Of a stretch of DNA of 64,000 nt, positions 30,026 to 48,493 are shown in pieces. Each line of letters starts with the position of its first letter. Position 1 is the stretch's first letter. Made by a program: the position numbers and the translations under genes. Source of the DNA: Candidatus Nomurabacteria bacterium RIFCSPLOWO2_01_FULL_42_17 (GTDB taxonomy: Bacteria; Patescibacteriota; Minisyncoccia; Phycocordibacterales; UBA9973); assembly GCA_001785985.1 (NCBI GenBank), contig MFVE01000005.1, positions 233,771 to 297,770 on the forward strand. Reading direction: 5' to 3'. The notes under the pieces were generated by a model. That model was not told the origin of the DNA. It saw only the letters and a list, made by a program, of their open reading frames with translations, and made no database searches.

Positions 30026-32728
30026 ATGATAAGTCTCAACGAAATTAAAAATCGTGCTCTCAATTTCTCAAAGGAATGGGAACGTGATTATAATGAAGAC
30101 GCAGAAGCAAAAAGTTTTTGGGATGGATTTTTTGATGTATTTGGAGTTTCTCGAAGACGAGTCGCTTCATTTGAATGGCCAGTAAAAAAGTTAGACAACA
30201 AGCAAGGATATATTGATGTACTTTGGAAGGGGGTTATGTTGGCTGAACATAAATCTAAAAACAAAGACTTAGATAAAGCATATACTCAGGCTAAGGATTA
30301 TTTTCCAGGACTTAAAGATGTAGAATTGCCTCGTTTTATTATAGTTTCCGATTTTGCAAAAATAAGGTTATATGATTTAGAAAAAAATTTAGCACAAGAA
30401 TTTGAACTGAAAGAACTTTCAAGAAATGTAGATTTATTTGATTTTATTTCTGGTCACAAATCAGTTGTTGATTATGGGAAAGAAGAAAAAGCAAGTATTG
30501 AAGCCGCTGAGTTAATGGCGGAATTTCATAATGAGATTGCTAAGACAGGATATTCTGGGCACGATCTTGAAGTCTTCCTGGTGCGTATTCTGTTTTGTCT
30601 GTTTGCTGACGATACCGATATTTTTTCAAAGCATTCCTTTCGTAATTATATAGAAAATAGAACTCAAATTGATGGAAGCGATCTGGGTCCAAAGATAGCT
30701 CAAGTTTTCCAAATTTTAAATACACCAATGGAAAAAAGACAGTCGAACCTAGATGAAGGTTTGGCTGTCTTTCCTTATGTGAATGGTGGAATTTTTTCAG
30801 AAAAGATTGAAATTGTTTCTTGCGATGCTAATGCATTAATTAGATTAATAAAATGTTGTGGTTTCGATTGGTCTGGAATTTCAGCTTCCATCTTCGGCTC
30901 CCTTTTTCAGGGTGTTATGAATGAAGATGAGAGAAGGCAACTGGGTGCTCATTATACTTCTGAACTAAATATTTTAAAAGTTATAAATTCTCTTTTTCTA
31001 GACGAATTGTATATAGAATTTGATAGTGTTAGATATGAACCAAAGAAACTTGAGGTATTTCACACAAAACTTTCTGAATTGAAGTTTTTAGACCCAGCTT
31101 GTGGCTGCGGAAATTTTCTCGTTGTTGCTTATATGGAGATCAGAAAATTAGAATTAGAAATTCTTATCCAAAAAGAAAGGAATGGAGAATTCATGCTCAT
31201 TCCAACTGAGGATATGTCTATTATTAATGTCAATCAATTCTATGGTATCGAAATTGAAGAGTTTCCTGCACTCATAGCCCGCGTCGCGATATATCTAGTG
31301 GATCATCAAATGAATAACGAGTTGTCTAAATACTTCGGTAAAATATATGCTCGTATTCCACTTCGCGAGCCAGCAAGCATAGTAAATGCCGATGCACTTA
31401 TTACTGATTGGGAAAGTGTTGTCCCTAAAAATAAACTTTCTTATATTTTAGGCAATCCACCTTTTGTCGGGGCTCGTTTGATGGGAAAAGGTCAGAAAGA
31501 GATTTTCTTGAAAGTTTTTGATAATGAAAAAGGTACAGGCAATCTTGATTTTGTGACGGCTTGGTATGAGAAAGCATCTCGATATATGGTTGGTACAAAA
31601 ATAAAAACAGCTTTTGTTTCCACTAACTCTATATGTCAGGGCGAACAAGTTGGCATTCTTTGGAAAAGATTAAAGGAAAAATATGGAGTGATAATACATT
31701 TTGCCCATCAGACTTTTAAATGGAATAATGATGCACCTGGTGTTGCAGCGGTCTACTGCATTATTGTAGGTTTTGCTTGTTTTGATACACCCAAAAAGTA
31801 TCTGTATGAATATGAAGATATAAAAGCTGAACCGAAAGAAAAAGAGGTTAAAAATATAAATGCGTATTTAGTAGCGGGGGATGATGTATTTATAGAAAAT
31901 ACAAGGACACCTACTTGCGATGCTCCAGAAATAGTTTTCGGAAGTATGCCAAACGATGGCGGAAATTTTCTTTTTACTGAGGAAGAAAAAAATCAATTTC
32001 TTAATGAAGAACCCAATGCTGAAAAATATATAAAAGAATTAATAAGTGCGAGAGAATATTTAAATGGTGAAAAAAGGTATTGTTTATGGCTGAAAGACAT
32101 TGATCCAAGTATTTTAAAAAAATTGCCAAAAGTTTTAGAACGAATTGACAATGTCAGAAAATTACGAAGTGAAAGTAATCGCAAAGAAACTAAAGATCTT
32201 GCAAAAACTCCCGCATTATTTGGTGAAATAAGACAACCTAAAAGTGATTATATTTTTATCCCACTTACTTCTTCTGAACATAGAGAATATATTCCAATGG
32301 GATTTTTTGATAAAGAAAAAATTTCCAACAATACGGGCAGTCTTGTTACTGATGCAACATTATATCATTTTGGCATTCTTGAATCAGAAATGCATATGAC
32401 TTGGGTTAGATATGTCTGTGGAAGACTAAAAGGGGATTATCGTTATTCAAATACCCTAGTCTATAATAATTTTCCTTGGCCTAAAAATGTAAAAGACGAA
32501 CAGAAAAAGAAAGTTGAAGATTGTGCGCAGAAAGTTCTAGATGTACGTTTGCAGTTTTCTAATAGTTCACTTTCTGACCTATATGATCCAAACACTATGC
32601 CGTCAGATTTAGTAGAAGCGCATAATAATCTCAATAGGGCAGTAGATGTGTGTTATAGAAGCAAGTTTAAAGACTTAGAAGAAAGAATCGAATTTTTGTT
32701 TGAGTTATATAAAAAATACATTAAATAA
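30026..32728 (+). CDS. MmeI-family Type IIL restriction-modification enzyme (single-chain endonuclease, N6-adenine methyltransferase and target-recognition domain)
   Basis: N-terminal PD-(D/E)xK motif GYIDVLWKGVMLAEHKSK (D64...E74-x-K76, matching MmeI D70/E80/K82). MTase motif I FLDPACGCGNFLV and motif IV ILGNPPFVGA. 900 aa, the size of MmeI and its relatives. Confidence 0.8.
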   Translation: MISLNEIKNRALNFSKEWERDYNEDAEAKSFWDGFFDVFGVSRRRVASFEWPVKKLDNKQGYIDVLWKGVMLAEHKSKNKDLDKAYTQAKDYFPGLKDVELPRFIIVSDFAKIRLYDLEKNLAQEFELKELSRNVDLFDFISGHKSVVDYGKEEKASIEAAELMAEFHNEIAKTGYSGHDLEVFLVRILFCLFADDTDIFSKHSFRNYIENRTQIDGSDLGPKIAQVFQILNTPMEKRQSNLDEGLAVFPYVNGGIFSEKIEIVSCDANALIRLIKCCGFDWSGISASIFGSLFQGVMNEDERRQLGAHYTSELNILKVINSLFLDELYIEFDSVRYEPKKLEVFHTKLSELKFLDPACGCGNFLVVAYMEIRKLELEILIQKERNGEFMLIPTEDMSIINVNQFYGIEIEEFPALIARVAIYLVDHQMNNELSKYFGKIYARIPLREPASIVNADALITDWESVVPKNKLSYILGNPPFVGARLMGKGQKEIFLKVFDNEKGTGNLDFVTAWYEKASRYMVGTKIKTAFVSTNSICQGEQVGILWKRLKEKYGVIIHFAHQTFKWNNDAPGVAAVYCIIVGFACFDTPKKYLYEYEDIKAEPKEKEVKNINAYLVAGDDVFIENTRTPTCDAPEIVFGSMPNDGGNFLFTEEEKNQFLNEEPNAEKYIKELISAREYLNGEKRYCLWLKDIDPSILKKLPKVLERIDNVRKLRSESNRKETKDLAKTPALFGEIRQPKSDYIFIPLTSSEHREYIPMGFFDKEKISNNTGSLVTDATLYHFGILESEMHMTWVRYVCGRLKGDYRYSNTLVYNNFPWPKNVKDEQKKKVEDCAQKVLDVRLQFSNSSLSDLYDPNTMPSDLVEAHNNLNRAVDVCYRSKFKDLEERIEFLFELYKKYIK

Positions 32729-34283: not shown

Positions 34284-34598
34284 ATGAAAAAAGTGCAAGT
34301 GTTTAACTCACGCGAGATGATCCATGCCCGTCGTTTAAAACGCAACGCGGTGTATCGGAAGAAACACAATGGTTCAGCTCGACTGGACCAGACGTCCCTA
34401 GCACTCCAGCCGGAGCTGACACCACCAAGTGCAGTTCGGCTGGATCGGAAACCCGAACCAGCAGAGCAACCACCATCGCACTCGCTACAAGCATGGCGAA
34501 AGTGGACCGATGAGGAGCTGGAGAAAGCGGCCGCCACAATCAATGGCCAAAACGGGGGTAAGAAGGACAAAAAGGCGCGCTGGCTTAATTACAGGTAA
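34284..34598 (+). CDS. Hypothetical basic protein (104 aa) on a GC-rich segment
   Basis: An ORF followed directly by a strong terminator. About 58% GC. Its reality is uncertain because GC-rich DNA yields ORFs in all frames. Confidence 0.4.
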   Translation: MKKVQVFNSREMIHARRLKRNAVYRKKHNGSARLDQTSLALQPELTPPSAVRLDRKPEPAEQPPSHSLQAWRKWTDEELEKAAATINGQNGGKKDKKARWLNYR

Positions 34599-34622
34599 AT
34601 TGCCCGGATCGGGCCAATCAGA

Positions 34623-34661
34623 CAGCCCGGAACCCATACGGTTCCGGGCTGTTATTTATTT
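34623..34661 (+). terminator. Rho-independent terminator (cagcccggaac-ccatacg-gttccgggctg followed by ttatttatt)
   Basis: An 11-bp perfect GC-rich stem with a T-rich tail, 25 nt after the stop at 34598. Confidence 0.7.
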
Positions 34662-35037: not shown

Positions 35038-38000
35038 ATGGCTGAAAAAGAACCTGCCCGCAATGCTTTCAGCATAGCTGATGCAGGCGGGGAAAAAAGT
35101 AATAAGAGTGATGTAGCGCTTCCAGCCTCCGCTGGTAGCTCTGGCGTGGCGAAGCGCGAGGAAGCAATTTTGCAGTTTTGGAAGAAGAATAAAATTTTCC
35201 AGAAATCTTTAGATAAAAATTCACCAAAGGGGAATTATGTTTTTTATGATGGTCCGCCTTTCGCTACCGGCCTGATACATTATGGACACATTTTAGGGAG
35301 TACTGCCAAAGATGCCGTGGCGCGTTATCAGACGATGAGGGGATATCATGTGCCTAGAAAGTGGGGCTGGGATTGTCATGGACTTCCGATTGAAAACATT
35401 GTTGAAAAAGATTTGAATATTGCCGGACATAAGGAAATAGAAAAGATTGGTATAGATAAATTTGTCGAACATGCGCGGAGTCTTGTCTTGCAATACGATA
35501 AGGAATGGGAAAGCGGGGTAGAGCGCATCGGACGATGGGTGGACTTTCGGGGCGGATACAAAACGATGGACAATACTTTCATCGAATCCGTCTGGTGGGC
35601 GTTTAGCGAGCTAAATAAAAAAGGACTTATCTATGAAGGGGTGAGAGTTCTGGCCTATTGCGCAAGATGCGAGACGCCGATCGCGAATTCCGAAATTGCG
35701 ATGGATAACAGCTATAAAGATATTGCGGATCTTTCTATTTATGTAAAGTTTGAACTGGAAAATGAATCGGGAACATATCTGCTTGCTTGGACCACCACTC
35801 CGTGGACATTGCCGGGGAACACTGCGATTGCGGTAAATAAAAATATTACATATGTAAAAGTGAGAATAGGAAATGATGTGTTGATACTTGCAAAAGACAC
35901 CCTCCAGAATGTATTAAAAGAAAAAGAATATTCTGTGGTAGAGGAAATCAAAGGGAGTGAATTAATAGGCAAAAAATATAAACCGGTATTTCCATACTAT
36001 CGGAATGTTGATCTGCCAAATAAAGAAAACATTTGGAAGGTCTGGTCGGCGGATTTCGTGACGACCGAGAAAGGTACGGGGATCGCGCACGAAGCGCCGG
36101 CTTTCGGCGAGGACGATATGAATCTGGCAAAGCAGTATAGTATTCCCTGGATTATTCACGTGGATGAGACGGGCAGATTTAAGCCCGAAGTTACTGATTT
36201 TTCTGGTTTAAAAGTCAAACCAAAAGATACGCCGGAAGACAAAGATGCGCATATGCGGAGCGATATTGAAATCATTAAATATCTGCAAAAAACCGGAGCA
36301 TATTTTGATAAAGAAAAAATAATCCATTCATATCCGCATTGCATGCGTTGCGATACGCCGATTATTTATTACGCGCTGCCATCCTGGTTCATAAATATTC
36401 AGAAAGTTAAAAAAAATATTTTGAAAAGAGCTGAGAGTATGAATTGGGTTCCTGCACATCTAAAAGAGGGCAGATTTAAAAATATAGTCGAAAATGCGCC
36501 TGATTGGAATGTGTCCAGAAATCGTTACTGGGCTTCGCCTTTACCCGTCTGGAAATGTGAAAAATGCACCGAACAAGTTTTTATTAGTTCGCTCGCAGAT
36601 CTGAAAGTCAAAACAAAAAAGTCCGGTAATAAATATTTTGTAATGCGGCACGGGGAGGCGGAAAATAACGCAAAAAATATTTATTCTTCCAACCAGAAAA
36701 TAAACCACCTGACAGAAAAAGGTCGCACGCAAGTCCTGCAGACGATAGGGCACCTAAAAAGTAAAAAAATCACTAAAATATATTGTTCACCTTTTTTGCG
36801 TACCCGCGAGACGGCGCAAATGGTAGCCGAGAAAATTGGTTTTCCGCTCGAGAAAATTATTTACGATGACAGAATTCGCGAATTAGAATTTGGTGATTTT
36901 TCAGAGCGTCCGGTTTCGGATTACTGGGATTATATGAAAGACAAAATATGGGAATTTGATAAAAAAGTTCCCGGAGGGGAAAGTTTTCAGGATGGCAAGA
37001 ATCGTATTGGAAATTTTCTGTACGATATCGATCAGAAAAATAAAAATGAGTGCATCCTGATCATCTCTCATGGCATTGCAGTCGAGATGGTGCCAGCGGT
37101 GATCGAAGCAGCTGATAAAAAGCGTTCAGCAGAAGTTTTTCATTTGCATATGAAAAATAAAACTGCAGAATTGCATCGTGAACATGAATTTTCTCCTCTT
37201 CCACATAATGCAAATTATGAACTAGATTTTCATAGACCCTATATAGATGAGATAAGACTCGTTTGCAGTTGTAAATCCGAAATGAAGAGAGTGCCCGAAG
37301 TTTTAGATTCTTGGTTGGAGTCTGGTTCCATGCCTTTTGCGCAGAATCACTATCCATTTGAAAATCGAGATTGGCAGAAGAATAATTTTCCGGCTGGTTT
37401 CGTGGCGGAATATATCGCGCAGACCAGAACATGGTTTTATTATACTCATGTGCTCTCGACAATTCTCTTTGATCATGCACCATTTGATAATGTGGTCACC
37501 ACTGGCACGCTGCTCTCGGAAGATGGTCAGAAAATCTCAAAATCTAAAAAGAATTATCCAGACCCATGGATATTTATAGATAAGTATGGAGTGGACGCGC
37601 TTCGTATGTATCTGATGACGAGTCCCCTAATGAAAGGCGAAGATGCAAACTTCTCCGAAAAATTAGTACAGGAAATTTCAAGTAAAATTATCGGAAGACT
37701 TGGTAATGTGGTTTCTTTCTATGAACTCTACCCCGCGCCAGAGCAAGCCAGGTACGAGGCAGGTAGTGATGTTAAAAAGTCTGGAGATATCTTGGATAAA
37801 TGGATTCTGGCGCGATTGAATCAACTGGTGAGTGAAGTTACAAACGGCATGGAAGCCTACGATATGAATGAAGCCTCTCGCCCCATCGAGGGCTTCATTG
37901 AGGATCTTTCTGTGTGGTATCTGCGTCGTTCCAGAGAGCGAATAAAAGATGGGGACAAGGAAGCGAAACAGACTTTATATTTTCTACTAAAAACCGTGGC

Positions 38001-38658
38001 GAAAATCATGGCGCCGTTTGCGCCTTTCACTGCCGATGATATTTGGTTGCGCTTAAAAAATAAAAATGATGCGGAAAGTGTGCATCTGACGCAGTGGCCA
38101 AAAATGTCGAAGCCGGTTTTTGACATTTTTGGCAGTTCGCAAGATAAAATCTTAGGTAGTATGCAAAAAGTTAGAAATATCGTTTCTCTAGGACTGGAGG
38201 CTCGGCAAAAAGCAGGCATAAAAGTGCGACAACCGCTTGCTAGATTAGAAATAAAAGATTTCAATTTGGGAAAAGAATATGTTGAGCTTATAAAAGATGA
38301 ATTGAATGTGAAAGAAGTGAAACAAAATAAAAATCTTGAAAGTGAAGTCAGTCTAGATTTAAATATCACCGAAGAATTAAAGCAAGAGGGAGATTATCGA
38401 GAATTGGTTCGTGCTTTGCAAGATATGCGCAAAAAGATTGGGTTAACCCCGAGTGATGTCGTCGCGCTTACTTTTGAAACAAATGATATGGGTAAAGAAT
38501 TAATTCAAAAGTTTGAACTCGATATAAAGAAAACTGTACTCGTGTCTGAAATAAAATTCAAAGAAAATACTGGTCCTGCTTTCGCCGAAGGCTACAGCGA
38601 GGCGAGGGATGAAATAAAAATAGATGATTTAGTATTTAAGGTAAAAATTGAGAAATAG
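35038..38658 (+). CDS. ileS: Isoleucine--tRNA ligase (type 2) carrying an inserted histidine-phosphatase (PGAM-like) domain
   Basis: PPFATGLIHYGH (HIGH), a CP1 editing domain, WKCEKC ... DFHRPYIDEIRLVCSCK ... KISKSKKN (KMSKS). About 200 extra residues (~aa 521-729) contain FVMRHGEAENN, CSPFLRTRETAQ, ELEFGDF and ILIISHGIAVE. The true start may be the GTG near 35146, because codons 5-18 are a GC-rich repeat. Confidence 0.85.
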   Translation: MAEKEPARNAFSIADAGGEKSNKSDVALPASAGSSGVAKREEAILQFWKKNKIFQKSLDKNSPKGNYVFYDGPPFATGLIHYGHILGSTAKDAVARYQTMRGYHVPRKWGWDCHGLPIENIVEKDLNIAGHKEIEKIGIDKFVEHARSLVLQYDKEWESGVERIGRWVDFRGGYKTMDNTFIESVWWAFSELNKKGLIYEGVRVLAYCARCETPIANSEIAMDNSYKDIADLSIYVKFELENESGTYLLAWTTTPWTLPGNTAIAVNKNITYVKVRIGNDVLILAKDTLQNVLKEKEYSVVEEIKGSELIGKKYKPVFPYYRNVDLPNKENIWKVWSADFVTTEKGTGIAHEAPAFGEDDMNLAKQYSIPWIIHVDETGRFKPEVTDFSGLKVKPKDTPEDKDAHMRSDIEIIKYLQKTGAYFDKEKIIHSYPHCMRCDTPIIYYALPSWFINIQKVKKNILKRAESMNWVPAHLKEGRFKNIVENAPDWNVSRNRYWASPLPVWKCEKCTEQVFISSLADLKVKTKKSGNKYFVMRHGEAENNAKNIYSSNQKINHLTEKGRTQVLQTIGHLKSKKITKIYCSPFLRTRETAQMVAEKIGFPLEKIIYDDRIRELEFGDFSERPVSDYWDYMKDKIWEFDKKVPGGESFQDGKNRIGNFLYDIDQKNKNECILIISHGIAVEMVPAVIEAADKKRSAEVFHLHMKNKTAELHREHEFSPLPHNANYELDFHRPYIDEIRLVCSCKSEMKRVPEVLDSWLESGSMPFAQNHYPFENRDWQKNNFPAGFVAEYIAQTRTWFYYTHVLSTILFDHAPFDNVVTTGTLLSEDGQKISKSKKNYPDPWIFIDKYGVDALRMYLMTSPLMKGEDANFSEKLVQEISSKIIGRLGNVVSFYELYPAPEQARYEAGSDVKKSGDILDKWILARLNQLVSEVTNGMEAYDMNEASRPIEGFIEDLSVWYLRRSRERIKDGDKEAKQTLYFLLKTVAKIMAPFAPFTADDIWLRLKNKNDAESVHLTQWPKMSKPVFDIFGSSQDKILGSMQKVRNIVSLGLEARQKAGIKVRQPLARLEIKDFNLGKEYVELIKDELNVKEVKQNKNLESEVSLDLNITEELKQEGDYRELVRALQDMRKKIGLTPSDVVALTFETNDMGKELIQKFELDIKKTVLVSEIKFKENTGPAFAEGYSEARDEIKIDDLVFKVKIEK
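35053..35092. repeat. GC-rich palindromic repeat, family A, copy 3 (inside the annotated 5' end of ileS)
   Basis: cctgcccgcaatgctttcagcatagctgatgcaggcgggg. Confidence 0.7.
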
Positions 38659-38662
38659 ACTT

Positions 38663-39310
38663 ATGAAAAAAATTTCAGAAATTTATACTGAATATAAGAT
38701 CATGCCGAATTTACAGGAGCATATGCTTCGCGTAGCGGCGGTGGCATCTTTGATTTGTGATAATTTTAATGAGCCAGTCTCAAAAGCAGAACTAGTGACA
38801 GCATGCTTGCTGCATGATATGGGAAATATCATAAAGTCTCAATTGGAATATTTTCCAGAATTTTTAGAGCCAGAAGGACTAGAGTATTGGCAAGGTGTTA
38901 AAAATGAATATATAAATAAATATGGAAGAGATGAACATAAGGCGACAGAACAGATCATGAAAGAGCTTGGTGTATTTCCAAATTTAATTTCAGTTGTAGA
39001 TCAGATTAGATTTTCACTTATTCGTAATATCCGTGACAGCAACGATATGATGATGAAAATAATTATTTATTCCGACAATCGTGCGGATCCGCATGGAATA
39101 GTGTCTTACGAAGAGAGGATGGAAGAGGGGAAAAAGAGATATAAAAATAGAAAAGATGTTTTTGGTATTACAGGACGGGATGAATTGATCCAATGTGGTA
39201 AAGAAATTGAAAAACAAATTTTTTCCAAGTGTAAAATAAAGCCGGAAGATATAAATAACGAAACCGTTGCACCAATAGTTCTAAAATTGAAAAATTTTGT
39301 GGTAAAATAA
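38663..39310 (+). CDS. HD-domain phosphohydrolase
   Basis: The H...HD motif (LLHDMGN) with downstream His/Asp residues. The start is moved to MKKISEIY. It overlaps the end of ileS. Confidence 0.55.
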   Translation: MKKISEIYTEYKIMPNLQEHMLRVAAVASLICDNFNEPVSKAELVTACLLHDMGNIIKSQLEYFPEFLEPEGLEYWQGVKNEYINKYGRDEHKATEQIMKELGVFPNLISVVDQIRFSLIRNIRDSNDMMMKIIIYSDNRADPHGIVSYEERMEEGKKRYKNRKDVFGITGRDELIQCGKEIEKQIFSKCKIKPEDINNETVAPIVLKLKNFVVK

Positions 39311-39368: not shown

Positions 39369-39929
39369 ATGAAGATAATTGATAAAGAATCTAATGCAGG
39401 GAAAATAATTCGTGCGCTAGGTTTTGGGATTGGGATAACAGTGGCTTTATCAAACAGAAGGACTAGTTATAAAATCACTAAATTATTGATCAAAGAAATC
39501 TTTGGATTAAATAAAAGACCGCCTAATATGGCTGGCTACTTTTTAAAACTAAGAAAACAAAAATTGATTGAGATCAAAAAAGACGGGAATCATCATAGAA
39601 TTTTTCTAACAGAAGGTGGCAGAGAGATCTTTTTACGATTCAATTATGAGGAATTAAAAATAAGAAATCCAAAAATCTGGGACCGAAATTTTCGAGTGAT
39701 TGTTTTTGATATTCCAGAAAGAAAAAGAAATGCACGAAATTCTTTAAGAGAAAAGATGAAGGAGTTAGGTTTTATCAAATTTAACGATAGTGTTTGGATT
39801 TATCCTTATCCATGTCAAAAAGAGATTGATTTCATCGCTAATTATTGGGGAATAGGCAAGTATGTGCATTTTATTTTGGCTCGAGATATTACGAATCGCG
39901 ATTTATTAGAAAAGTCCTTCAATTTATAG
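39369..39929 (+). CDS. PaaX-like regulator-type protein (N-terminal wHTH-like region plus C-terminal Cas2-fold-like domain)
   Basis: WDRNFRVIVFDIPERKRNARNSLREKMKELGFIKFNDSVWIYPY resembles the PaaX C-terminal / Cas2-like core. There is no CRISPR array nearby. Confidence 0.4.
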   Translation: MKIIDKESNAGKIIRALGFGIGITVALSNRRTSYKITKLLIKEIFGLNKRPPNMAGYFLKLRKQKLIEIKKDGNHHRIFLTEGGREIFLRFNYEELKIRNPKIWDRNFRVIVFDIPERKRNARNSLREKMKELGFIKFNDSVWIYPYPCQKEIDFIANYWGIGKYVHFILARDITNRDLLEKSFNL

Positions 39930-41287: not shown

Positions 41288-43249
41288 ATGCCAATAAACG
41301 ACAGGGATAAATTAAACAGAATAGAAGAACTCAAGGCTAAGCTTTTCAGTAAAAATTATCAAACAAAGATAGAGCATCGGGATAAATTTTCACATCCAAA
41401 GAGGAGCGATGTGCCAGAGGTCTGGGAAGAGGGCGAGAATCTGGGAACTGGCCCCACTGCTTACACTCAGAGATTTTTTATGAAAACATCAATGTTTAAA
41501 AATTTTTTCATTTTTTCGTCAGTTTTTTTTGTTTTGACGCTCTTGTATGCTTCCTATGTATTTTTTGCCGGAGGTAATACGGTTTCTAACGATAATATTG
41601 ATATTTCTATTCTTGGAAATAATTTTACCGCCGGCGGGGAAGATCTGTCCCTGATTGTTGGGATTACAAATAAAAATAGTTCTGCGCTGGATTTAGTAGA
41701 TCTGGTTTTGGAATATCCTAGGGGCTCTTCTGCCAATTCTGCGGATGGGGGCGCGGGTTCGTCTGCTGGGGTAGAGAGGTTTCGTCAATCTTTGGGCACT
41801 ATTCCTTCTGGAGGCGTGCGCAATGAAAATCTCAAAATAGTTCTTTTTGGCGAGCAAGGTTCGGTGCGCACTATAAAAATTTCTCTAGAGTACCGGGTCG
41901 AAGGCTCGAATGCGATTTTTGTTAAAGAAAAATCTTATGATGTTACTATCAGCTCCACACCCCTCAATATTTCTGTCGATGCGCCTGCGACCGTCAGCCC
42001 GAATCAAGATATCACCCTCAATATCAAGGCGACGTTGAACGCTACGAATACAGTTCCAAAGATGCTCCTCAAGGTTGATTATCCGGCTGGGTTTAAATTT
42101 GAATCCTCTGTGCCCGCCACAACTCTCGGCAACAATGTCTGGAGTTTGGGAGATCTGCCTCCGGGCGCTGAGCGCAATATCTCAATCACAGGCAAGATGC
42201 TCGATGTTTTTGATGGAGAAGAAAAAATATTTCACATTACGAGCGGTTCGCAAGGCGTGGGAGACAAGACTATGATCGATGTGATTTTTAATTCTATATC
42301 GCACATCGTTGCTATTAAAAAACCCTTCATCGAAGCGAAACTTTTTATCAATGGCGTATCAGGCAGGGAATATACTACGAATGCGCAGTCGCCAGTCCAT
42401 GGCGAGATTCGCTGGGTTAATAATTTGGACACCAAAGTGAATGATTTGGAGATTCGGGCAAAAATTTCCGGCAATGCAGTTGATCGCAAGACGATCAAAG
42501 CCGATGGTGGATTTTATGATTCGTCTAAAAATGTAATAATTTGGGACAAGCATTCAGAAGACGGATTCAGTGAGATAAATCCGGGTGATTCCGGGGCAGC
42601 AAATTTCTCCGTCTCTCCACTTTCTCTCTTTTCAGCTACGGGCGAAATGCTCTCTAGTCCCACCATTACTATAGACATTTCTATTTCCGGCAAACAATTA
42701 GTCTCTGGCTATACAGCTGCCGATTTGAATAATTCTAATACCTCTATCATTCGGATCATTTCTGATGTGGGATTAAACACAAAGGCGTTCTATTATTCCG
42801 GGCCTTTCACTAACACTGGCCCGATACCGCCGAAGGTTGAAAAAACGACTACCTACACTATAGTCTGGTCCGTATCTAATACAGCCAACAATATTTCGAG
42901 GGGCGTTGTCCGTTCTACCCTGCCTTCTTGGATCAAATTTGTGGGCGCTATTTCACCTTCGAATGAAGATTTGAATTACAATCCTTCTACCAGAGAAATA
43001 GTTTGGAATATTGGCAACATCCCGAGGGGTACAGATATCACCGGCTTGCCTCGCAGTGTCGCTTTCCAGATCAGCTTTACTCCGTCACTTTCTCAAGTTC
43101 GCACTACGCCGATCATTATCAATGAAGCAGTTTTGACTGGCCATGATGATTTTGCTAATGTGGATGTGAGAGCGAGCAAAGGGTCGCTTCGCACTCAGCT
43201 TTCGAGCGACCCTCAGTTTCCCTCCGCTGGCGGCACGGTAGTTGAATAA
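41288..43249 (+). CDS. Membrane-anchored cell-surface protein with DUF11-like repeats
   Basis: N-terminal TM (FFIFSSVFFVLTLLYASYVFF), then repeated beta-rich modules (TYTIVWSVSNTANN, REIVWNIGNIPRG). Confidence 0.5.
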   Translation: MPINDRDKLNRIEELKAKLFSKNYQTKIEHRDKFSHPKRSDVPEVWEEGENLGTGPTAYTQRFFMKTSMFKNFFIFSSVFFVLTLLYASYVFFAGGNTVSNDNIDISILGNNFTAGGEDLSLIVGITNKNSSALDLVDLVLEYPRGSSANSADGGAGSSAGVERFRQSLGTIPSGGVRNENLKIVLFGEQGSVRTIKISLEYRVEGSNAIFVKEKSYDVTISSTPLNISVDAPATVSPNQDITLNIKATLNATNTVPKMLLKVDYPAGFKFESSVPATTLGNNVWSLGDLPPGAERNISITGKMLDVFDGEEKIFHITSGSQGVGDKTMIDVIFNSISHIVAIKKPFIEAKLFINGVSGREYTTNAQSPVHGEIRWVNNLDTKVNDLEIRAKISGNAVDRKTIKADGGFYDSSKNVIIWDKHSEDGFSEINPGDSGAANFSVSPLSLFSATGEMLSSPTITIDISISGKQLVSGYTAADLNNSNTSIIRIISDVGLNTKAFYYSGPFTNTGPIPPKVEKTTTYTIVWSVSNTANNISRGVVRSTLPSWIKFVGAISPSNEDLNYNPSTREIVWNIGNIPRGTDITGLPRSVAFQISFTPSLSQVRTTPIIINEAVLTGHDDFANVDVRASKGSLRTQLSSDPQFPSAGGTVVE

Positions 43250-43292
43250 TATGAAAAAAGAGAAAAAAGAAAATTTGCAGGAGAATGATTTG

Positions 43293-44597
43293 ATGGAGAA
43301 AATAGTCTCGCTCTGTAAAAGGCGCGGGTTTGTCTTTCAGGGTTCGGAAATATATGGGGGATTAGGGGGTACTTATGACTGGGGGCATTTCGGAGTGGCG
43401 TTAAAAAATAATATCAAGCAATCTTGGTGGAAAAAATTTGTGGATTCCAGGAGAGATATGTATGGCATCGATGCGGCTATTTTGATGCGCCAAGAAGTCT
43501 GGCAAGCGTCCGGCCATGTGGCGGGATTTGCAGATCCCATGTCCGAATGCGAGAAATGCAAGATGCGATTTCGCGCAGATCAACTTGAAGATGCGAAGAA
43601 ATGTCCCGAATGCGGGGGAAAACTGGGCGAAGTGAAGCAATTTAATATGATGTTCTCTACCAGAGTCGGCGCATCGCAAGATTCTTCGGCCACTTCCTAT
43701 CTGCGTCCGGAAACAGCGCAGGGAATGTTTGTAAATTTCAAAAATACTGTGGATGCTTTTCATCCCAGGTTGCCTTTCGGCCTGGCGCAGATCGGCAAGG
43801 CGTTTCGAAACGAGATCACGCCTAGAGATTTTCTTTTCCGACAGCGCGAATTTGAACAGATGGAGATAGAATATTTTATCAGAGAAGAAGATTGGGAAAA
43901 ACATTTTGAATATTGGAGGGGCGAGATGCTGAGCTGGATGCAGGAAGTCGGGCTAGATATGGCAAAAGTCCATGAGCTAGAGGTGTTAAAGGAAGATCGG
44001 GCGCATTACTCTAGCCGGACAGTGGATTTCGAATTTGATTATCCTTTTGGCAAAAAAGAGCTCTTTGGGCTGGCATATCGCACGGATTTTGATTTGAAAA
44101 ATCACAAACTTGAATACATAGACGAACCCGCCGACGCTGAAGCTATGTCGGGCAAGGGAAAAAGTCAAAAAATAGTTCCGCATGTCATCGAGCCGACCTT
44201 CGGCGTCGATCGCGCGGTGCTGGCTCTGATTCTTTCTGTCTATGTGGAAGATGAAAAAGACGGAGAAGTGCGTTCATATCTAAAATTTAAGCCAAACATC
44301 GCTCCAGTGATCTGCGCTGTTTCGCCTTTACTTAAAAATAAGCCAGAGCTCGTGGAATATGCGAATAAAAAAGTTTACGAGCCGCTCAAGGCAGAATTTG
44401 GACGTGTAGCCTGGGATGACAATGGCAATATCGGCAAGCGTTATCGTCGACAAGATGAAATCGGCACGCCGTTTTGCATCGTGGTAGATTTTGATACGCT
44501 CACGGATGATAGCGTGACTGTCCGCGACCGCGATACGGGGGAACAAGAGAGAATAAAAGTAGCGGATTTAAAAAAATATATAAAAGAAAAGATTTAA
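43293..44597 (+). CDS. glyQS: Glycine--tRNA ligase (alpha2 dimeric type)
   Basis: MEKIVSLCKRRGFVFQGSEIYGGLGGTYDWGHFG and class II motifs. The start is moved to MEKIV. The tracked ORF begins at 43242. Confidence 0.85.
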   Translation: MEKIVSLCKRRGFVFQGSEIYGGLGGTYDWGHFGVALKNNIKQSWWKKFVDSRRDMYGIDAAILMRQEVWQASGHVAGFADPMSECEKCKMRFRADQLEDAKKCPECGGKLGEVKQFNMMFSTRVGASQDSSATSYLRPETAQGMFVNFKNTVDAFHPRLPFGLAQIGKAFRNEITPRDFLFRQREFEQMEIEYFIREEDWEKHFEYWRGEMLSWMQEVGLDMAKVHELEVLKEDRAHYSSRTVDFEFDYPFGKKELFGLAYRTDFDLKNHKLEYIDEPADAEAMSGKGKSQKIVPHVIEPTFGVDRAVLALILSVYVEDEKDGEVRSYLKFKPNIAPVICAVSPLLKNKPELVEYANKKVYEPLKAEFGRVAWDDNGNIGKRYRRQDEIGTPFCIVVDFDTLTDDSVTVRDRDTGEQERIKVADLKKYIKEKI

Positions 44598-47011: not shown

Positions 47012-48493
47012 ATGACGAGCAAAGACAAAAAATATTTCTATATCTCTACGACGATTCCTTATGTAAACGCAGATCCTCACATTGGTTTTGCGCTGGAGCT
47101 GGTGCAGTCTGATGTGATTGCGAGATATCAACGCCTCATCGGACGTGAAGTATTTTTTAGCACTGGCACAGATGAATACGGACAAAAGATCTGGGAAGCG
47201 AGCCAAAAAGAAGGAAAAAATGTTCAGGATTATGTAGACCATTATGCGCAAAAATTTATAGAGCTCAAAGAGATACTCAATTTATCTTATGATAATTTTA
47301 TCCGAACTACCAGCAAAGAACACAACCTAGCGGCTCAAGAATTTTGGCGTCTTTGCGAGAGGAAAGGTGATATTTATAAAAAAATATACCGAGGACTTTA
47401 TTGTATCGGGTGCGAGAGATTTATCACCGAGAAAGATTTGTTGGATGGATATTGTTCTCTGCATCCGGGCAAGAAACCCGAGATGGTGGAAGAGGAAAAT
47501 TATTTTTTCAGACTGACAAACTATAAAAAACAGCTTCTAGAATATCTTTCAGATGAAAAAGTCGTCTTTCCGGAGTGGAGGAGGAAAGAAGCCATTGATT
47601 TTGTAAATGAGGGCATGGAAGATTTCTCGATCTCGCGCAGTGCCGAACGTTTTTCTTGGGGTATACCGATACCGGGGGATGATACGCAGGTGATGTATGT
47701 CTGGTTCGGCGCTTTCATAAATTATCTCTCGACCTTGGGATGGCCCGGAAGAACCTCACCCCAGCCCTCTCCTTATAAAGGAGAGGGAGGAAGTAATTTT
47801 GAAAAATTCTGGCAAAGAGGGCAGACGGTCCAGATGGCCGGCAAAGACATGGTCAAATTTCAGTCTGTCATGTGGCAGGGGATGTTGATGTCCGCAGGTA
47901 TGCCTACCACTGGTACTATTGTTTATCATGGCTTTATCACTGGTGAAGGCGGAGTAAAAATTTCTAAATCTGTGGGGAATGGGATACACCCGAACGATAT
48001 TGTGTCCGAATATGGCACGGATGCCCTGCGATATTTTCTTTTGCGCGAAATTTCGACATTCGAAGATAGCCCCTTTACGATAGAACGATTTAAGGAAGCC
48101 TACAATGCGAATCTCGCGAATGGTTTGGGGAATTTGGTTTCACGTATTCTTACTCTTTCTGAAAAATATTTAGACAAGTGTCCAGAAATTGGAGAGGGAT
48201 CTGATTTTAGAGAATATTTTAGCTTTTTTGAAAAATTTGATCTGAAACAAGCAGCAGACTATGTCTGGAATGAGATAGGAGAGCTGGATAAATTTATTCA
48301 AGAAACAGAGCCGTTCAAGGTGGTGAAGGTAGATGCGCAAAAAGGGAAGGAAATAATAGCAAACATGGTCCTTCGTTTATATCAAATAGCTCAAATGCTG
48401 GATCCAATCATGCCGGAGACAAATATATTGCTAAAAAAATTAATTCGAGAAAACAAAAAACCGGAAGCCCCTTTATTCCCACGCAAAGATTAA
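47012..48493 (+). CDS. metG: Methionine--tRNA ligase (minimal form)
   Basis: The HIGH region (ADPHIGFA), a CxxC knuckle and VKISKS (KMSKS). It contains the in-frame GC-rich hairpin coding SPQPSPYKGEGGS. Confidence 0.88.
   Translation: MTSKDKKYFYISTTIPYVNADPHIGFALELVQSDVIARYQRLIGREVFFSTGTDEYGQKIWEASQKEGKNVQDYVDHYAQKFIELKEILNLSYDNFIRTTSKEHNLAAQEFWRLCERKGDIYKKIYRGLYCIGCERFITEKDLLDGYCSLHPGKKPEMVEEENYFFRLTNYKKQLLEYLSDEKVVFPEWRRKEAIDFVNEGMEDFSISRSAERFSWGIPIPGDDTQVMYVWFGAFINYLSTLGWPGRTSPQPSPYKGEGGSNFEKFWQRGQTVQMAGKDMVKFQSVMWQGMLMSAGMPTTGTIVYHGFITGEGGVKISKSVGNGIHPNDIVSEYGTDALRYFLLREISTFEDSPFTIERFKEAYNANLANGLGNLVSRILTLSEKYLDKCPEIGEGSDFREYFSFFEKFDLKQAADYVWNEIGELDKFIQETEPFKVVKVDAQKGKEIIANMVLRLYQIAQMLDPIMPETNILLKKLIRENKKPEAPLFPRKD
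47765..47787. repeat. GC-rich hairpin repeat, family C, copy 1 (CCCTCTCCTT-ATAA-AGGAGAGGG), in-frame inside metG
   Basis: The same hairpin occurs at 51975-51997 and, in a variant form, at 52034-52058. Confidence 0.7.

What the first reader, a model, noticed from the sequence alone, without database searches (positions are those of the whole stretch)
36598..37225. Complete histidine-phosphatase (PGAM/SixA-like) domain inserted inside isoleucyl-tRNA synthetase
The ileS ORF is 1206 aa, about 200 aa longer than ordinary type-2 IleRS. In canonical IleRS a short linker joins the first zinc knuckle (here WKCEKC) to the conserved block DFHRPYIDEIRLVCSCK...RVPEVLDSWLESGSMPF. Here that linker is replaced by about 205 residues carrying every hallmark of the His_Phos_1 fold: FVMRHGEAENN (the RHG phospho-acceptor His), YCSPFLRTRETAQ (SPLxRAxxTA), ELEFGDFSERP (E..FG) and ILIISHGIAVE (the second catalytic His). 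Both flanks are in frame, so the synthetase is probably intact and functional. A catalytic phosphatase module grafted into an essential aaRS could be a regulatory or moonlighting fusion.
Basis: partly seen in the sequence, partly recalled or inferred. Interest (0 to 1): 0.8.

Follow-up and report, generated by a model that had tools for sequence, protein, structure and literature searches.

The report
Phosphatase domain nested inside isoleucyl-tRNA synthetase
The essential enzyme that loads isoleucine onto tRNA here carries a complete, apparently active histidine-phosphatase domain spliced into one of its zinc hairpins; this pairing recurs across the tiny "CPR" bacteria (nested in the enzyme, or as the gene just upstream) and I found no description of it in the literature.

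Summary
ORF 35038..38658 (+, 1206 aa) is a type-2 IleRS: TIGR00392 scores 840 bits against a cut-off of 621, and the HYGH, KISKS and editing motifs are intact. Residues ~524-722 replace a 4-residue linker of solved IleRS2 (8C8V) with a full His_Phos_1 domain (Pfam E=8e-30; segment model pLDDT 88).

It is not an assembly artefact. All 120 best homologs carry the domain, as do 92 of the 150 best 50%-identity cluster representatives and 25 GTDB species representatives, all Patescibacteria-type apart from one record labelled Gammaproteobacteria.

The catalytic set R537/H538/R588/E615/H678 is invariant, although the domain otherwise evolves about twice as fast as the synthetase body.

New findings:
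- The same phosphatase family occurs at other loops of IleRS, in tandem, and in ValRS with up to 4 copies. Nearly every complete copy keeps the catalytic residues; one ValRS copy has Ala at the acid position.
- In another Patescibacteria lineage it is a separate, very basic 190-aa protein. Its gene lies immediately upstream of an insert-less ileS in 7 of 7 contigs, in the same synteny as this window.

So the phosphatase is a dedicated partner of IleRS. It is closest to the PhoE/PspA/CobC type, not SixA or dPGM. Its substrate is unknown. My leading guess, at about 35%, is a phosphate on synthetase-bound tRNA.

I found no literature on it. I rate it a new variant of a known kind, with moderately high interest.

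The parts
35038..38658 (+). ileS: type-2 isoleucyl-tRNA synthetase with nested phosphatase, 1206 aa (end includes the stop codon)
   Evidence: ORF list. TIGR00392 scores 839.7 bits, above the 621.4 cut-off. Best solved relatives are IleRS2 8C8V/8C8U, E=1e-221.
35278..35289 (+). HIGH signature (HYGH, aa 81-84)
   Evidence: Motif scan.
35710..36339 (+). CP1 editing domain (about aa 225-434) with WTTTPWT (251) and GTGIAH (346)
   Evidence: Matches the isolated IleRS editing-domain structures 1WK8/1UE0. Motifs found.
36556..36567 (+). First zinc knuckle CxxC (C507, C510)
   Evidence: Sequence. The Cys residues are kept in 72% of 120 homologs. They correspond to T. thermophilus IleRS Cys461/464 by the 1ILE alignment offset, with the ligand assignment from memory.
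36607..37203 (+). Inserted segment, aa 524-722 (199 aa), absent from canonical IleRS2
   Evidence: The alignment to 8C8V leaves only chain residues 476-479 here. Insert-less IleRS2 in 55 GTDB loci have 3-22 residues here.
36628..37176 (+). His_Phos_1 domain proper (aa 531-713), collinear with free-standing 190-aa family members
   Evidence: Pfam PF00300 at aa 534-693. A family HMM covers 531-713 at 239 bits. Segment model has pLDDT 88.5 and pTM 0.86. Foldseek hits PspA, HFP, GpgP, PhoE and CobC with probability 1.0 and target-normalised TM up to 0.78.
36646..36654 (+). RHG motif: R537, nucleophile H538, G539
   Evidence: 100% conserved in 120 homologs. R537 and H538 are invariant in the diverse alignment A2 (G539 is nearly invariant there) and in all tandem and ValRS copies.
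36799..36801 (+). R588, second phosphate-binding Arg (SPxxRTxxTA motif)
   Evidence: 100% conserved.
36880..36882 (+). E615, general acid (ExxxG motif)
   Evidence: 100% conserved in 120 homologs. It is E, or D in some distant and free-standing members, and A in one ValRS copy.
37069..37071 (+). H678, second catalytic His (SHG motif)
   Evidence: 100% conserved.
37264..37272 (+). Second zinc knuckle CxC (C743, C745)
   Evidence: Sequence. Kept in 72% of homologs.
37531..37545 (+). KMSKS signature (KISKS, aa 832-836)
   Evidence: Motif scan.
37795..38241 (+). Anticodon-binding domain (aa 920-1068)
   Evidence: Pfam Anticodon_1, E=1.6e-32.
38344..38655 (+). C-terminal IleRS2 domain (DUF5915, aa 1103-1206)
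   Evidence: Pfam PF19302, E=1.7e-16.
38648..39310 (+). Downstream HD-domain gene, overlapping the ileS stop. It is fused to the IleRS C-terminus in some close relatives. Whether it belongs functionally is uncertain.
   Evidence: Pfam HD, E=1.5e-7. 8 of 120 close homologs carry PF01966. P0014 aligns at 56% identity over 218 aa. It is not next to ileS in 25 more distant insert-bearing loci.

Best explanation
The gene encodes one polypeptide with two enzymes. The host is an ordinary, intact type-2 isoleucyl-tRNA synthetase. Nested in the hairpin held by its second zinc site (CxxC...CxC, between the WxxPxPxW strand and the DxHRPYID/DxWxESG block) is a complete small histidine phosphatase of the PhoE/PspA/CobC kind. 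By homology it would hydrolyse a phosphomonoester through a phospho-His538 intermediate. R537, R588 and H678 would hold the phosphate, and E615 would act as the acid.

The phosphatase is not a random passenger. It belongs to a Patescibacteria-specific family whose members are always found with a class Ia synthetase. They are nested in IleRS (three different loops, one or two copies), nested in ValRS (up to four copies), or encoded as a separate, strongly basic 190-aa protein by the gene immediately upstream of an insert-less ileS.

Shown here: the architecture, its spread, the conservation of the catalytic residues, and the gene linkage. Inferred: that the domain is catalytically active and works together with the synthetase.

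My working model, at about 35%, is that it removes a phosphate from something presented by the synthetase-bound tRNA, for example a 2'/3'-phosphorylated acceptor end. The free form would then have to bind RNA by itself, which would explain its SmpB/IF3-like charge. The nested form would be delivered by IleRS and could be neutral.
For: - **Architecture.** Pfam and NCBIfam hits. Precise replacement of a 4-residue linker of 8C8V. Confident fold of the segment, pLDDT 88.5 and pTM 0.86, with Foldseek probability 1.0 to PspA, HFP, GpgP, PhoE and CobC.
- **IleRS is intact.** HYGH, KISKS, WTTTPWT and GTGIAH are present. The gene lies in the same synteny (ileS...recO-CLIPPER-glyS-M16) as insert-less ileS of other Patescibacteria.
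- **Not an artefact, and lineage-wide.** 120 of 120 best homologs carry PF00300. 92 of the 150 best 50%-identity representatives are IleRS with the insert. 25 GTDB species representatives carry it.
- **Selection on catalysis.** In 120 homologs the insert is only 38% identical (median) against 73% for the body. Yet R537, H538, G539, R588, E615 and H678 are 100% conserved and N544 is 99%. The 16 of 186 insert columns that are at least 95% conserved are mostly catalytic-core and fold-motif positions. The same residues are kept at 33-46% identity and in all tandem, alternative-site and ValRS copies except one ValRS copy with Ala at the acid position.
- **Functional linkage.** Independent nesting at several loops of IleRS and ValRS. 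Free-standing members score 188-196 bits on the insert HMM. They lie -4 to +20 nt (one case +129) upstream of insert-less ileS in 7 of 7 contigs.
- **Charge clue.** Free forms have pI about 10 and +0.10 to +0.18 net charge per residue, like SmpB and IF3 in the same loci. Most other enzymes there have about -0.02 to +0.08. Nested domains have pI about 5.9, like the IleRS body.
Against: - No activity has been measured.
- No member of His_Phos_1 known to me acts on RNA ends, and the nearest characterised relatives act on small metabolites.
- The surface of the nested domain evolves fast, with no conserved patch beyond the active site. That argues against a large conserved tRNA interface.
- Several insertion sites and copy numbers argue against a precise geometric coupling to the acceptor end.
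- The orientation of the domain relative to the IleRS active site could not be obtained.
- The seven operon cases come from one protein family (42-53% identity to the query protein P0182) and share synteny, so they are not seven independent events.
- Some Patescibacteria IleRS have neither a nested nor an adjacent phosphatase (L044, L047, L067, L068).
Confidence: 0.6

Rival explanations
1. It is a tethered small-molecule phosphatase. The domain hydrolyses a soluble phosphomonoester, such as a nucleotide like AMP, a phospho-sugar or acid, or a phospho-amino acid. It is attached to or co-expressed with IleRS only to share its constitutive expression, or to act on a product or by-product of the synthetase.
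For: All close characterised relatives are small-molecule phosphatases: PspA, PhoE, CobC, GpgP, and the Aquifex HFP of riboflavin synthesis. Only the active-site residues are conserved, while the surface drifts. Several insertion sites and copy numbers are tolerated.
Against: It gives no reason why the partner is always IleRS or ValRS, or why nesting arose repeatedly. It does not explain the RNA-binder-like charge of the free form against the neutral nested form. The scores are far below the cut-offs of all specific equivalog families.
Confidence: 0.3
2. It is a protein phosphatase guarding the synthetase. The domain removes an inhibitory phosphate from IleRS or ValRS itself, for example one placed by a Hip-like or Ser/Thr kinase, or from another translation factor.
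For: The superfamily includes protein phosphatases (SixA, PGAM5, Sts-1; from memory). Action in cis or nearby would tolerate several insertion sites and copy numbers. The catalytic residues are strictly kept.
Against: No kinase was found in the neighbourhood. The domain resembles the small-molecule branch more than SixA: TIGR00249 scores 34.6 against a cut-off of 74.5, with only the N-terminal third matched. A strongly basic free form paired with a basic IleRS in the same lineages does not suggest electrostatic docking.
Confidence: 0.1
3. It is a catalytically silent lineage-specific insertion. The domain is retained only as a structural or tRNA-docking module, or as neutral baggage, like many large insertions in CPR proteins.
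For: The insert evolves about twice as fast as the body. The zinc ligands flanking it are dispensable in 28% of homologs. Some related IleRS lack it altogether.
Against: Pseudo-enzymes normally lose the nucleophile. Here R-H-(G/A)...R...E/D...H is kept in every complete nested, tandem, ValRS and free copy examined, over divergences down to about 30% identity; the one exception is a ValRS copy with Ala at the acid position. The family also persists as a separate gene next to ileS.
Confidence: 0.07
4. It is an artefact or a mobile element: an assembly chimera, a frameshift joining two genes, or an intein-like selfish insert that is removed after translation.
For: None beyond the unusual length. 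A conserved His-Asn (H723, N724) follows the insert, superficially like an intein C-terminus.
Against: The identical protein occurs in two independent assemblies. More than 120 distinct clusters from NCBI, JGI, ENA and Logan show the same in-frame junctions. There is no Hint or intein domain hit. There is no Cys/Ser nucleophile at the N-junction, the residue after HN is variable, and the His is part of canonical IleRS2. GC content is not discontinuous across the insert.
Confidence: 0.01

Closest known systems
Type-2 (eukaryote-like, mupirocin-resistant type) IleRS, e.g. Priestia megaterium IleRS2 (PDB 8C8U/8C8V) and T. thermophilus IleRS (1ILE)
   Same: Full-length collinear homology at E=1e-221. 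It shares the HIGH and KMSKS motifs, the CP1 editing domain, the anticodon-binding and C-terminal domains, and the CxxC...CxC zinc hairpin.
   Different: The solved enzymes have a 4-residue connection where this protein has a 199-residue phosphatase domain. This protein also has an N-terminal extension of about 37 aa.
Small branch-1 histidine phosphatases: PspA/iPSP1 (4IJ5), PhoE/YhfR (1EBB, 1H2E), CobC (6NRU, 6E4B), GpgP Rv2419c (4PZ9), Aquifex HFP of riboflavin synthesis (9MMH; PMC12051542)
   Same: Same fold (Foldseek probability 1.0, target-normalised TM 0.67-0.78). Same catalytic residues and a similar size of about 190-210 aa.
   Different: Only 18-25% identical. The scores are well below every NCBIfam equivalog cut-off. 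Those enzymes are free-standing metabolic enzymes, whereas this one is nested in, or encoded next to, a tRNA synthetase. The substrate is unknown.
NCBIfam NF040702 'ileS_w_GNAT' (IleRS containing an N-acetyltransferase domain)
   Same: It is a recognised precedent for an IleRS carrying an extra catalytic domain.
   Different: It has a different inserted domain and is a different IleRS lineage: this protein scores 316 bits against a cut-off of 1999. NCBIfam has no corresponding model for the phosphatase-containing form.
Bifunctional RNase H/acid phosphatase (NF005567; Rv2228c type)
   Same: A CobC/PhoE-like histidine phosphatase is joined to a nucleic-acid enzyme. The insert matches its phosphatase half at 72-76 bits.
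   Different: That is an end-to-end fusion, not a nested one. It has a different partner, and its cut-off of 326 bits is not met.
Lineage-specific nested insertions in class I synthetases (the CP1 editing domain; the zinc modules and specific domains of LeuRS and ValRS)
   Same: The host loop is one of the classical 'connective polypeptide' sites where class Ia enzymes accept insertions. A survey of domain insertions (PMC13114784) lists aaRS as preferred hosts.
   Different: Those inserts are synthetase-specific modules for editing or tRNA contacts. This insert is a complete enzyme of an unrelated superfamily that also exists on its own.

Membership tests
Isoleucyl-tRNA synthetase (TIGR00392 ileS; type 2) | Whole-protein score above the curated equivalog cut-off | tested here: met
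   839.7 bits against 621.4, despite the match being split in two by the insert.
Isoleucyl-tRNA synthetase (TIGR00392 ileS; type 2) | Class I signature motifs HIGH and KMSKS | tested here: met
   HYGH at aa 81 and KISKS at aa 832.
Isoleucyl-tRNA synthetase (TIGR00392 ileS; type 2) | CP1 editing domain with the Thr-rich and GTGxxH motifs | tested here: met
   WTTTPWT at 251 and GTGIAH at 346. It matches the isolated editing-domain structures 1WK8/1UE0.
Isoleucyl-tRNA synthetase (TIGR00392 ileS; type 2) | Anticodon-binding helical domain and IleRS2 C-terminal domain | tested here: met
   Anticodon_1, E=1.6e-32, and DUF5915, E=1.7e-16.
Isoleucyl-tRNA synthetase (TIGR00392 ileS; type 2) | Charges tRNA-Ile with isoleucine | not testable with these tools
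   This needs an aminoacylation assay. Orthologous synteny with insert-less ileS supports a housekeeping role.
Histidine phosphatase superfamily, branch 1 (Pfam PF00300) | Score above the Pfam gathering threshold | tested here: met
   104.4 bits in the whole protein and 109.3 bits for the segment, against 21.7.
Histidine phosphatase superfamily, branch 1 (Pfam PF00300) | Catalytic core: RHG nucleophile His, two Arg, a second His and an acidic residue | tested here: met
   R537, H538, R588, H678 and E615 are present and 100% conserved in 120 homologs. They are also kept in diverse, tandem and ValRS copies, apart from one ValRS copy with Ala at the acid position.
Histidine phosphatase superfamily, branch 1 (Pfam PF00300) | Alpha/beta fold of the superfamily | tested here: met
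   Segment model pLDDT 88.5 and pTM 0.86. Foldseek probability 1.0 to 4IJ6, 9MMH, 6S2Q, 1H2E and 6NRU.
Histidine phosphatase superfamily, branch 1 (Pfam PF00300) | Phosphomonoesterase or mutase activity through a phosphohistidine intermediate | not testable with these tools
   This needs an enzyme assay with an H538A control.
Cofactor-dependent phosphoglycerate mutase (dPGM) | Score above the equivalog cut-offs (NF038349, NF010713, TIGR01258 and others) | tested here: not met
   The best is dPGM_arch at 89.6 bits against 225. TIGR01258 scores 23.8 against 81.7.
SixA phosphohistidine phosphatase (TIGR00249) | Score above the cut-off and a full-length match | tested here: not met
   34.6 to 39.8 bits against 74.5, and only profile positions 3-68 of 154 are matched.
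CobC alpha-ribazole phosphatase or PspA phosphoserine phosphatase | Score above the equivalog cut-offs | tested here: not met
   TIGR03162 scores 79.5 to 84.5 against 162.9. NF045917 scores 66.9 to 71.6 against 350.
Intein or other self-splicing protein insert | Hint domain, an N-terminal Cys/Ser nucleophile, and a C-terminal HN followed by Cys/Ser/Thr | tested here: not met
   There is no Hint-family hit. The N-junction is KKSGNKY. The residue after H723-N724 is variable, and the His belongs to canonical IleRS2.
NF040702 ileS_w_GNAT | Score above the cut-off and a GNAT domain | tested here: not met
   316 bits against 1999, and no acetyltransferase hit.

The most novel reading that the evidence does not exclude
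Patescibacteria have an undescribed, phosphate-dependent step tied to class Ia aminoacylation. A dedicated histidine phosphatase, nested in or translationally coupled to IleRS (and sometimes ValRS), would reverse a phosphorylation of the tRNA acceptor end, or of the synthetase, before charging. That would be a new layer of tRNA or aaRS quality control or regulation, and the first RNA-end or aaRS-directed member of the histidine phosphatase superfamily.
Probability: 0.3. Interest if true: 0.85.

Novelty: new variant of a known kind. Interest (0 to 1): 0.68.

Why it matters
Aminoacyl-tRNA synthetases are among the best-studied enzymes, and their accessory domains usually reveal extra functions such as editing, tRNA binding or signalling.

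Here a complete second enzyme, whose catalytic residues are conserved over deep divergence, is bound to IleRS across a very large radiation of uncultivated, host-dependent bacteria. The link takes three forms: nesting at several sites, tandem amplification, and tight operon coupling. That pattern of fusion, gene neighbourhood and repeated independent insertion is a strong comparative-genomic signal of a functional partnership. Yet no known step of aminoacylation needs a phosphomonoesterase.

Finding the substrate could uncover a new reaction in tRNA metabolism, or a new mode of regulating translation in minimal cells.

There are practical consequences too:
- Annotation pipelines call these proteins only 'class I tRNA ligase family protein'.
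- Those pipelines may miscount the embedded domain as a phosphoglycerate mutase in metabolic reconstructions of CPR genomes.
- The site is a natural, tolerated domain-insertion point in IleRS that protein engineers could use.

Tried and rejected
- **Literature.** Eight full-text searches (a ninth query was rejected for its syntax) and one paper check found no description of an IleRS or ValRS with a histidine phosphatase.
- **Domain orientation.** The full-length AlphaFold model has pLDDT 74 and pTM 0.57 with a poorly modelled catalytic core. Coordinates are not exposed. So I could not test whether the phosphatase pocket faces the aminoacylation site or the tRNA.
- **HD gene as a general partner.** It is fused in 8 of 120 close relatives. 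It is absent near ileS in all 25 more distant insert-bearing loci, and it has no solved or curated relative. I therefore treat it as a clade-specific association.
- **ValRS prevalence.** A dedicated search found only 3 of 120 hits with the insert, so it is rare.
- **Defence-system link.** PADLOC finds nothing for the insert.
- **RNA elements.** There is no Rfam hit at gathering score anywhere in the window, and only sub-threshold noise upstream of ileS. There are no tRNAs.
- **Single or multiple origin.** Neighbour-joining trees of the IleRS body, with 50 bootstraps, and of the domain are star-like at depth. Insert-less sequences are interspersed, so the question is unresolved.
- **Second His_Phos copy or a ValRS in the window.** None was found. 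MetRS (47012..48493) and GlyRS (43242..44597) carry no insert.
- **Rejected identities.** dPGM, SixA, CobC, PspA, intein and chimera are rejected for the reasons given in the membership table.
Full report
**1. Observation**

The window holds a single 1206-aa ORF at 35038..38658 on the + strand. Pfam finds tRNA-synt_1 in two stretches, Anticodon_1 and DUF5915. Between the two synthetase stretches it finds His_Phos_1 (PF00300) at aa 534-693, with E=7.7e-30. The flagged segment alone (36598-37225, aa 521-729) gives E=2.4e-31.

NCBIfam calls the protein ileS: TIGR00392 scores 839.7 bits against a cut-off of 621.4. The next-best models are the type-2 IleRS models MupA and MupB. The class I signatures HYGH (81) and KISKS (832) and the editing motifs WTTTPWT (251) and GTGIAH (346) are intact. 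GC content shows no discontinuity across the insert.

**2. Exact anatomy**

Against the closest solved IleRS2 (Priestia megaterium, 8C8V), query 38-523 aligns to chain 11-475 and query 723-1110 to chain 480-863. So 199 residues (524-722) stand where the canonical enzyme has four.

The insert lies between the CxxC knuckle (C507, C510) and the CxC knuckle (C743, C745). By the alignment offset to 1ILE, these correspond to Cys461/464 and Cys502/504 of the second zinc site of T. thermophilus IleRS; the ligand assignment is from memory. A zinc hairpin brings its two ends together, which is the geometry a nested domain needs.

A model of aa 495-765, built from a diverse alignment, is confident: pLDDT 88.5 and pTM 0.86. 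Its best structural matches are small branch-1 histidine phosphatases: PspA 4IJ5/4IJ6, Aquifex HFP 9MMH, mycobacterial hydrolase 6S2Q, GpgP Rv2419c, PhoE and CobC. All have probability 1.0, with target-normalised TM up to 0.78. Sequence search of the PDB gives the same set at E about 1e-10.

The full-length model also folds the insert confidently (block pLDDT 82-95, mostly above 86). It has pTM 0.57 and a poorly modelled catalytic core, so inter-domain orientation cannot be read from it.

The domain fails the curated cut-offs for dPGM, CobC, PspA, GpmB and SixA. It is therefore a member of the superfamily but not of any characterised equivalog family.

**3. Not an artefact, and lineage-wide**

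The identical protein is present on two independently assembled contigs, one from JGI and one from ENA. All 120 best homologs have precomputed hits to both PF00133 and PF00300. They are 60-76% identical and carry the names Nomurabacteria, Paceibacterota, Parcubacteria or Patescibacteria.

A full-library phmmer search with the insert alone found 11,856 relatives at E≤1e-3. Of the best 150 cluster representatives at 50% identity, 92 are IleRS, complete or fragmentary, with the domain at the same place. Their IleRS bodies are as little as 32-40% identical to this one.

A scan of GTDB species representatives was capped at 600 pattern matches and 80 loci. It returned 25 loci with the insert. Their labels are Patescibacteria, Paceibacteria, Yanofskybacteria, Spechtbacterales, Minisyncoccia, Peregrinibacteria/Peribacteria, some 'Saccharibacteria', and one 'Gammaproteobacteria' (L009).

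The same scan returned 55 loci without the insert. These include Streptomyces, Anaerolineae, Ignavibacteria and archaea, and also a few Patescibacteria (L044, L047, L067, L068).

Neighbour-joining trees of the IleRS body place the insert-bearing sequences in two or three groups, with insert-less sequences interspersed and unresolved deep nodes. I cannot say whether the insert arose once or several times.

**4. Selection acts on the active site**

In the 120-sequence alignment the insert is far less conserved than the synthetase. Median identity to the window protein is 38% for the insert and 73% for the body. Only 9% of insert columns are at least 95% conserved, against 44% of body columns.

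The conserved insert columns are mostly the catalytic and fold-defining positions of the superfamily: N531, Y533, F534, R537, H538, G539, N544, L558, T559, G562, S584, R588, T592, E615, R656 and H678. R537, H538, S584, R588, T592, E648 and H678 remain invariant in a 16-sequence alignment at 33-46% identity. Position 615 is E, or D in a few.

This is the pattern expected of an active enzyme whose surface is not constrained. It is not the pattern of a pseudo-enzyme.

**5. Variants found elsewhere**

- The Peregrinibacteria-type IleRS carry two tandem copies in the same hairpin (L023, L024, L027, P0256).
- P0172 carries one copy after the DxWFESG block and, like P0201, one at the junction to the anticodon-binding domain.
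- ValRS proteins carry copies after PQWF, at the WGHxIPxW...DTWFSS site homologous to the one used here, and after LGWP. P0254 has two copies, and the ValRS fragment P0124 has four.
- A ValRS fragment with a nested copy also sits on an ordinary 28-kb contig.
- Nearly every complete copy keeps R-H-(G/A)-N...R...E...H. The exception is the first copy of ValRS P0254, which has Ala at the acid position.
- ValRS carriers are rare: 3 of the 120 best hits in a dedicated search.

**6. The split form**

Free-standing proteins of 187-215 aa, from Nealsonbacteria, Parcubacteria and Patescibacteria, belong to the same family. They score 188-196 bits on an HMM of the nested domains, higher than many nested copies. 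They are collinear with the whole insert, from N-K-Y-x-x-x-R-H-G to G-E-x-R-K. In a domain tree they form one cluster embedded among nested copies.

In all seven contigs I looked up, the free gene lies immediately upstream of an insert-less ileS of 928-966 aa, or at least 777 aa where the contig ends. The gaps measured on six of the contigs are -4 to +20 nt, with one case of +129; the called coordinates on the seventh (L092) also overlap. The conserved order is argS-hisphos-ileS-x-recO-CLIPPER-glyS-M16.

Downstream of ileS this is the same order as in the window: ileS[+insert]-HD-PaaX_M-MBL-recO-CLIPPER-glyS-M16. The insert-bearing gene therefore occupies the orthologous housekeeping locus.

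Three of the six full-length partner IleRS (L087, L090, L091) show a normal short zinc hairpin at this site, for example ...CIGSIQELREKSGQNLDDLHRPYID.... The motif scan did not locate the hairpin in the other three (L083, L085, L089).

Nested fusion in some lineages and tight operon coupling in another is a classical signal of a functional partnership.

**7. A clue to the substrate class**

The free proteins are very basic. Median pI is 10.0, and net charge is +0.10 to +0.18 per residue. That matches SmpB and IF3 encoded in the same loci. Most other enzymes there, such as IleRS, ArgRS, NUDIX, a glutamine amidotransferase-domain protein (GATase) and RecO, lie between about -0.02 and +0.08.

The nested domains have median pI 5.9 and net charge -0.02 per residue, like the IleRS body. 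One reading is that the free form must bind a polyanion, namely RNA, on its own, whereas the nested form is delivered by a tRNA-binding host. This is suggestive only.

**8. Mechanism**

Shown:
- a bifunctional architecture;
- conservation of the catalytic residues;
- obligate genomic association with IleRS, and sometimes ValRS.

Inferred from the family:
- hydrolysis of a phosphomonoester through phospho-H538;
- R537, R588 and H678 as phosphate ligands;
- E615 as the acid.

The substrate is unknown. I favour a phosphate on synthetase-bound tRNA, at about 35%. The supporting points are the exclusive association with tRNA-binding class Ia enzymes and the charge contrast. A small-metabolite substrate is nearly as likely, at about 30%, because all characterised near relatives act on metabolites and the domain surface drifts. 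A protein-phosphatase role (about 10%) and a silent insert (about 7%) are less likely. An artefact is excluded.

No known step of aminoacylation requires a phosphomonoesterase, and that is why the association is interesting.

**9. Comparison with known systems, and novelty**

The host is an ordinary IleRS2. The guest is an ordinary small histidine phosphatase by fold, but it belongs to no characterised equivalog family. Extra catalytic domains in IleRS have a precedent in NCBIfam's 'ileS_w_GNAT'. A CobC-like phosphatase fused to a nucleic-acid enzyme has a precedent in the RNase H/acid phosphatase family.

I found no paper describing a histidine phosphatase nested in or coupled to IleRS or ValRS. 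Public records name these proteins only 'class I tRNA ligase family protein', 'isoleucine-tRNA ligase' or 'hypothetical protein'.

I therefore rate it a new variant of a known kind: a synthetase with an accessory domain. The sequences are already public but the architecture is uncharacterised. Interest is moderately high.

Noticed in passing
window 38648-39310 (+): An HD-domain gene overlaps the ileS stop codon. In 8 of 120 close IleRS homologs (for example P0014, 1328 aa) it is fused in frame to IleRS and replaces the last ~85 residues, giving an IleRS-phosphatase-HD triple protein. It has no solved or curated relative. It is not next to ileS in more distant insert-bearing lineages.
   Followed up: partly
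P0254, P0124, P0250; L093 1-1557: Valyl-tRNA synthetases carry one to four nested copies of the same phosphatase family at three different loops, one of them homologous to the IleRS site. They are rare, and the relatives are labelled Gracilibacteria-like.
   Followed up: partly
L023, L024, L027 (about aa 540-940); P0172, P0201: Some IleRS variants have two tandem phosphatase copies in the zinc hairpin. Others have copies at other loops: after DxWFESG, and before the anticodon-binding domain. All copies keep the catalytic residues.
   Followed up: yes
L083-L092 (e.g. L083 8001-8585 and 8587-11406): The free-standing phosphatase gene sits directly upstream of insert-less ileS, downstream of argS, in 7 of 7 contigs. 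The free proteins have pI about 10.
   Followed up: yes
L085 6597-7959, L086 6638-7711: A bAvd plus reverse-transcriptase pair, which looks like a diversity-generating retroelement, is inserted between argS and the free phosphatase gene in Nealsonbacteria-type contigs.
   Followed up: no
window 34284-34598 (+) and about 34603-34660: A 104-aa ORF with no family hit lies in a patch of 50-57% GC, against about 38% around it. It is followed by a GC-rich hairpin plus T-run that looks like a terminator, just upstream of ileS. Only sub-threshold Rfam noise was found there.
   Followed up: partly
window 39369-39929 (+): A 186-aa protein has a PaaX central Cas2-like domain (E=1.9e-20) and weak Cas2 hits in PADLOC. 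It lies between the HD gene and a metallo-beta-lactamase-fold gene.
   Followed up: no
window 30026-32728 (+): A 900-aa MmeI-type fused restriction-modification enzyme, according to the Pfam families on the identical JGI contig (L001).
   Followed up: no
window 36556-36567 and 37264-37272: The four Cys of the zinc hairpin that hosts the insert are present in only 72% of 120 close homologs. Zinc binding therefore seems dispensable once the domain is nested.
   Followed up: no
L083, L085, L089 (IleRS genes): Three of the insert-less IleRS that follow a free phosphatase gene branch very deeply and lack the usual W-G-x-P-x-P-x-W motif. The other three (L087, L090, L091) group with insert-bearing IleRS. 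The phosphatase-ileS linkage may thus have survived a replacement of ileS.
   Followed up: partly
window 43242-44597 and 47012-48493 (+): GlyRS and a short MetRS lie in the same window. Neither has a phosphatase insert, and the window holds no other His_Phos copy.
   Followed up: yes
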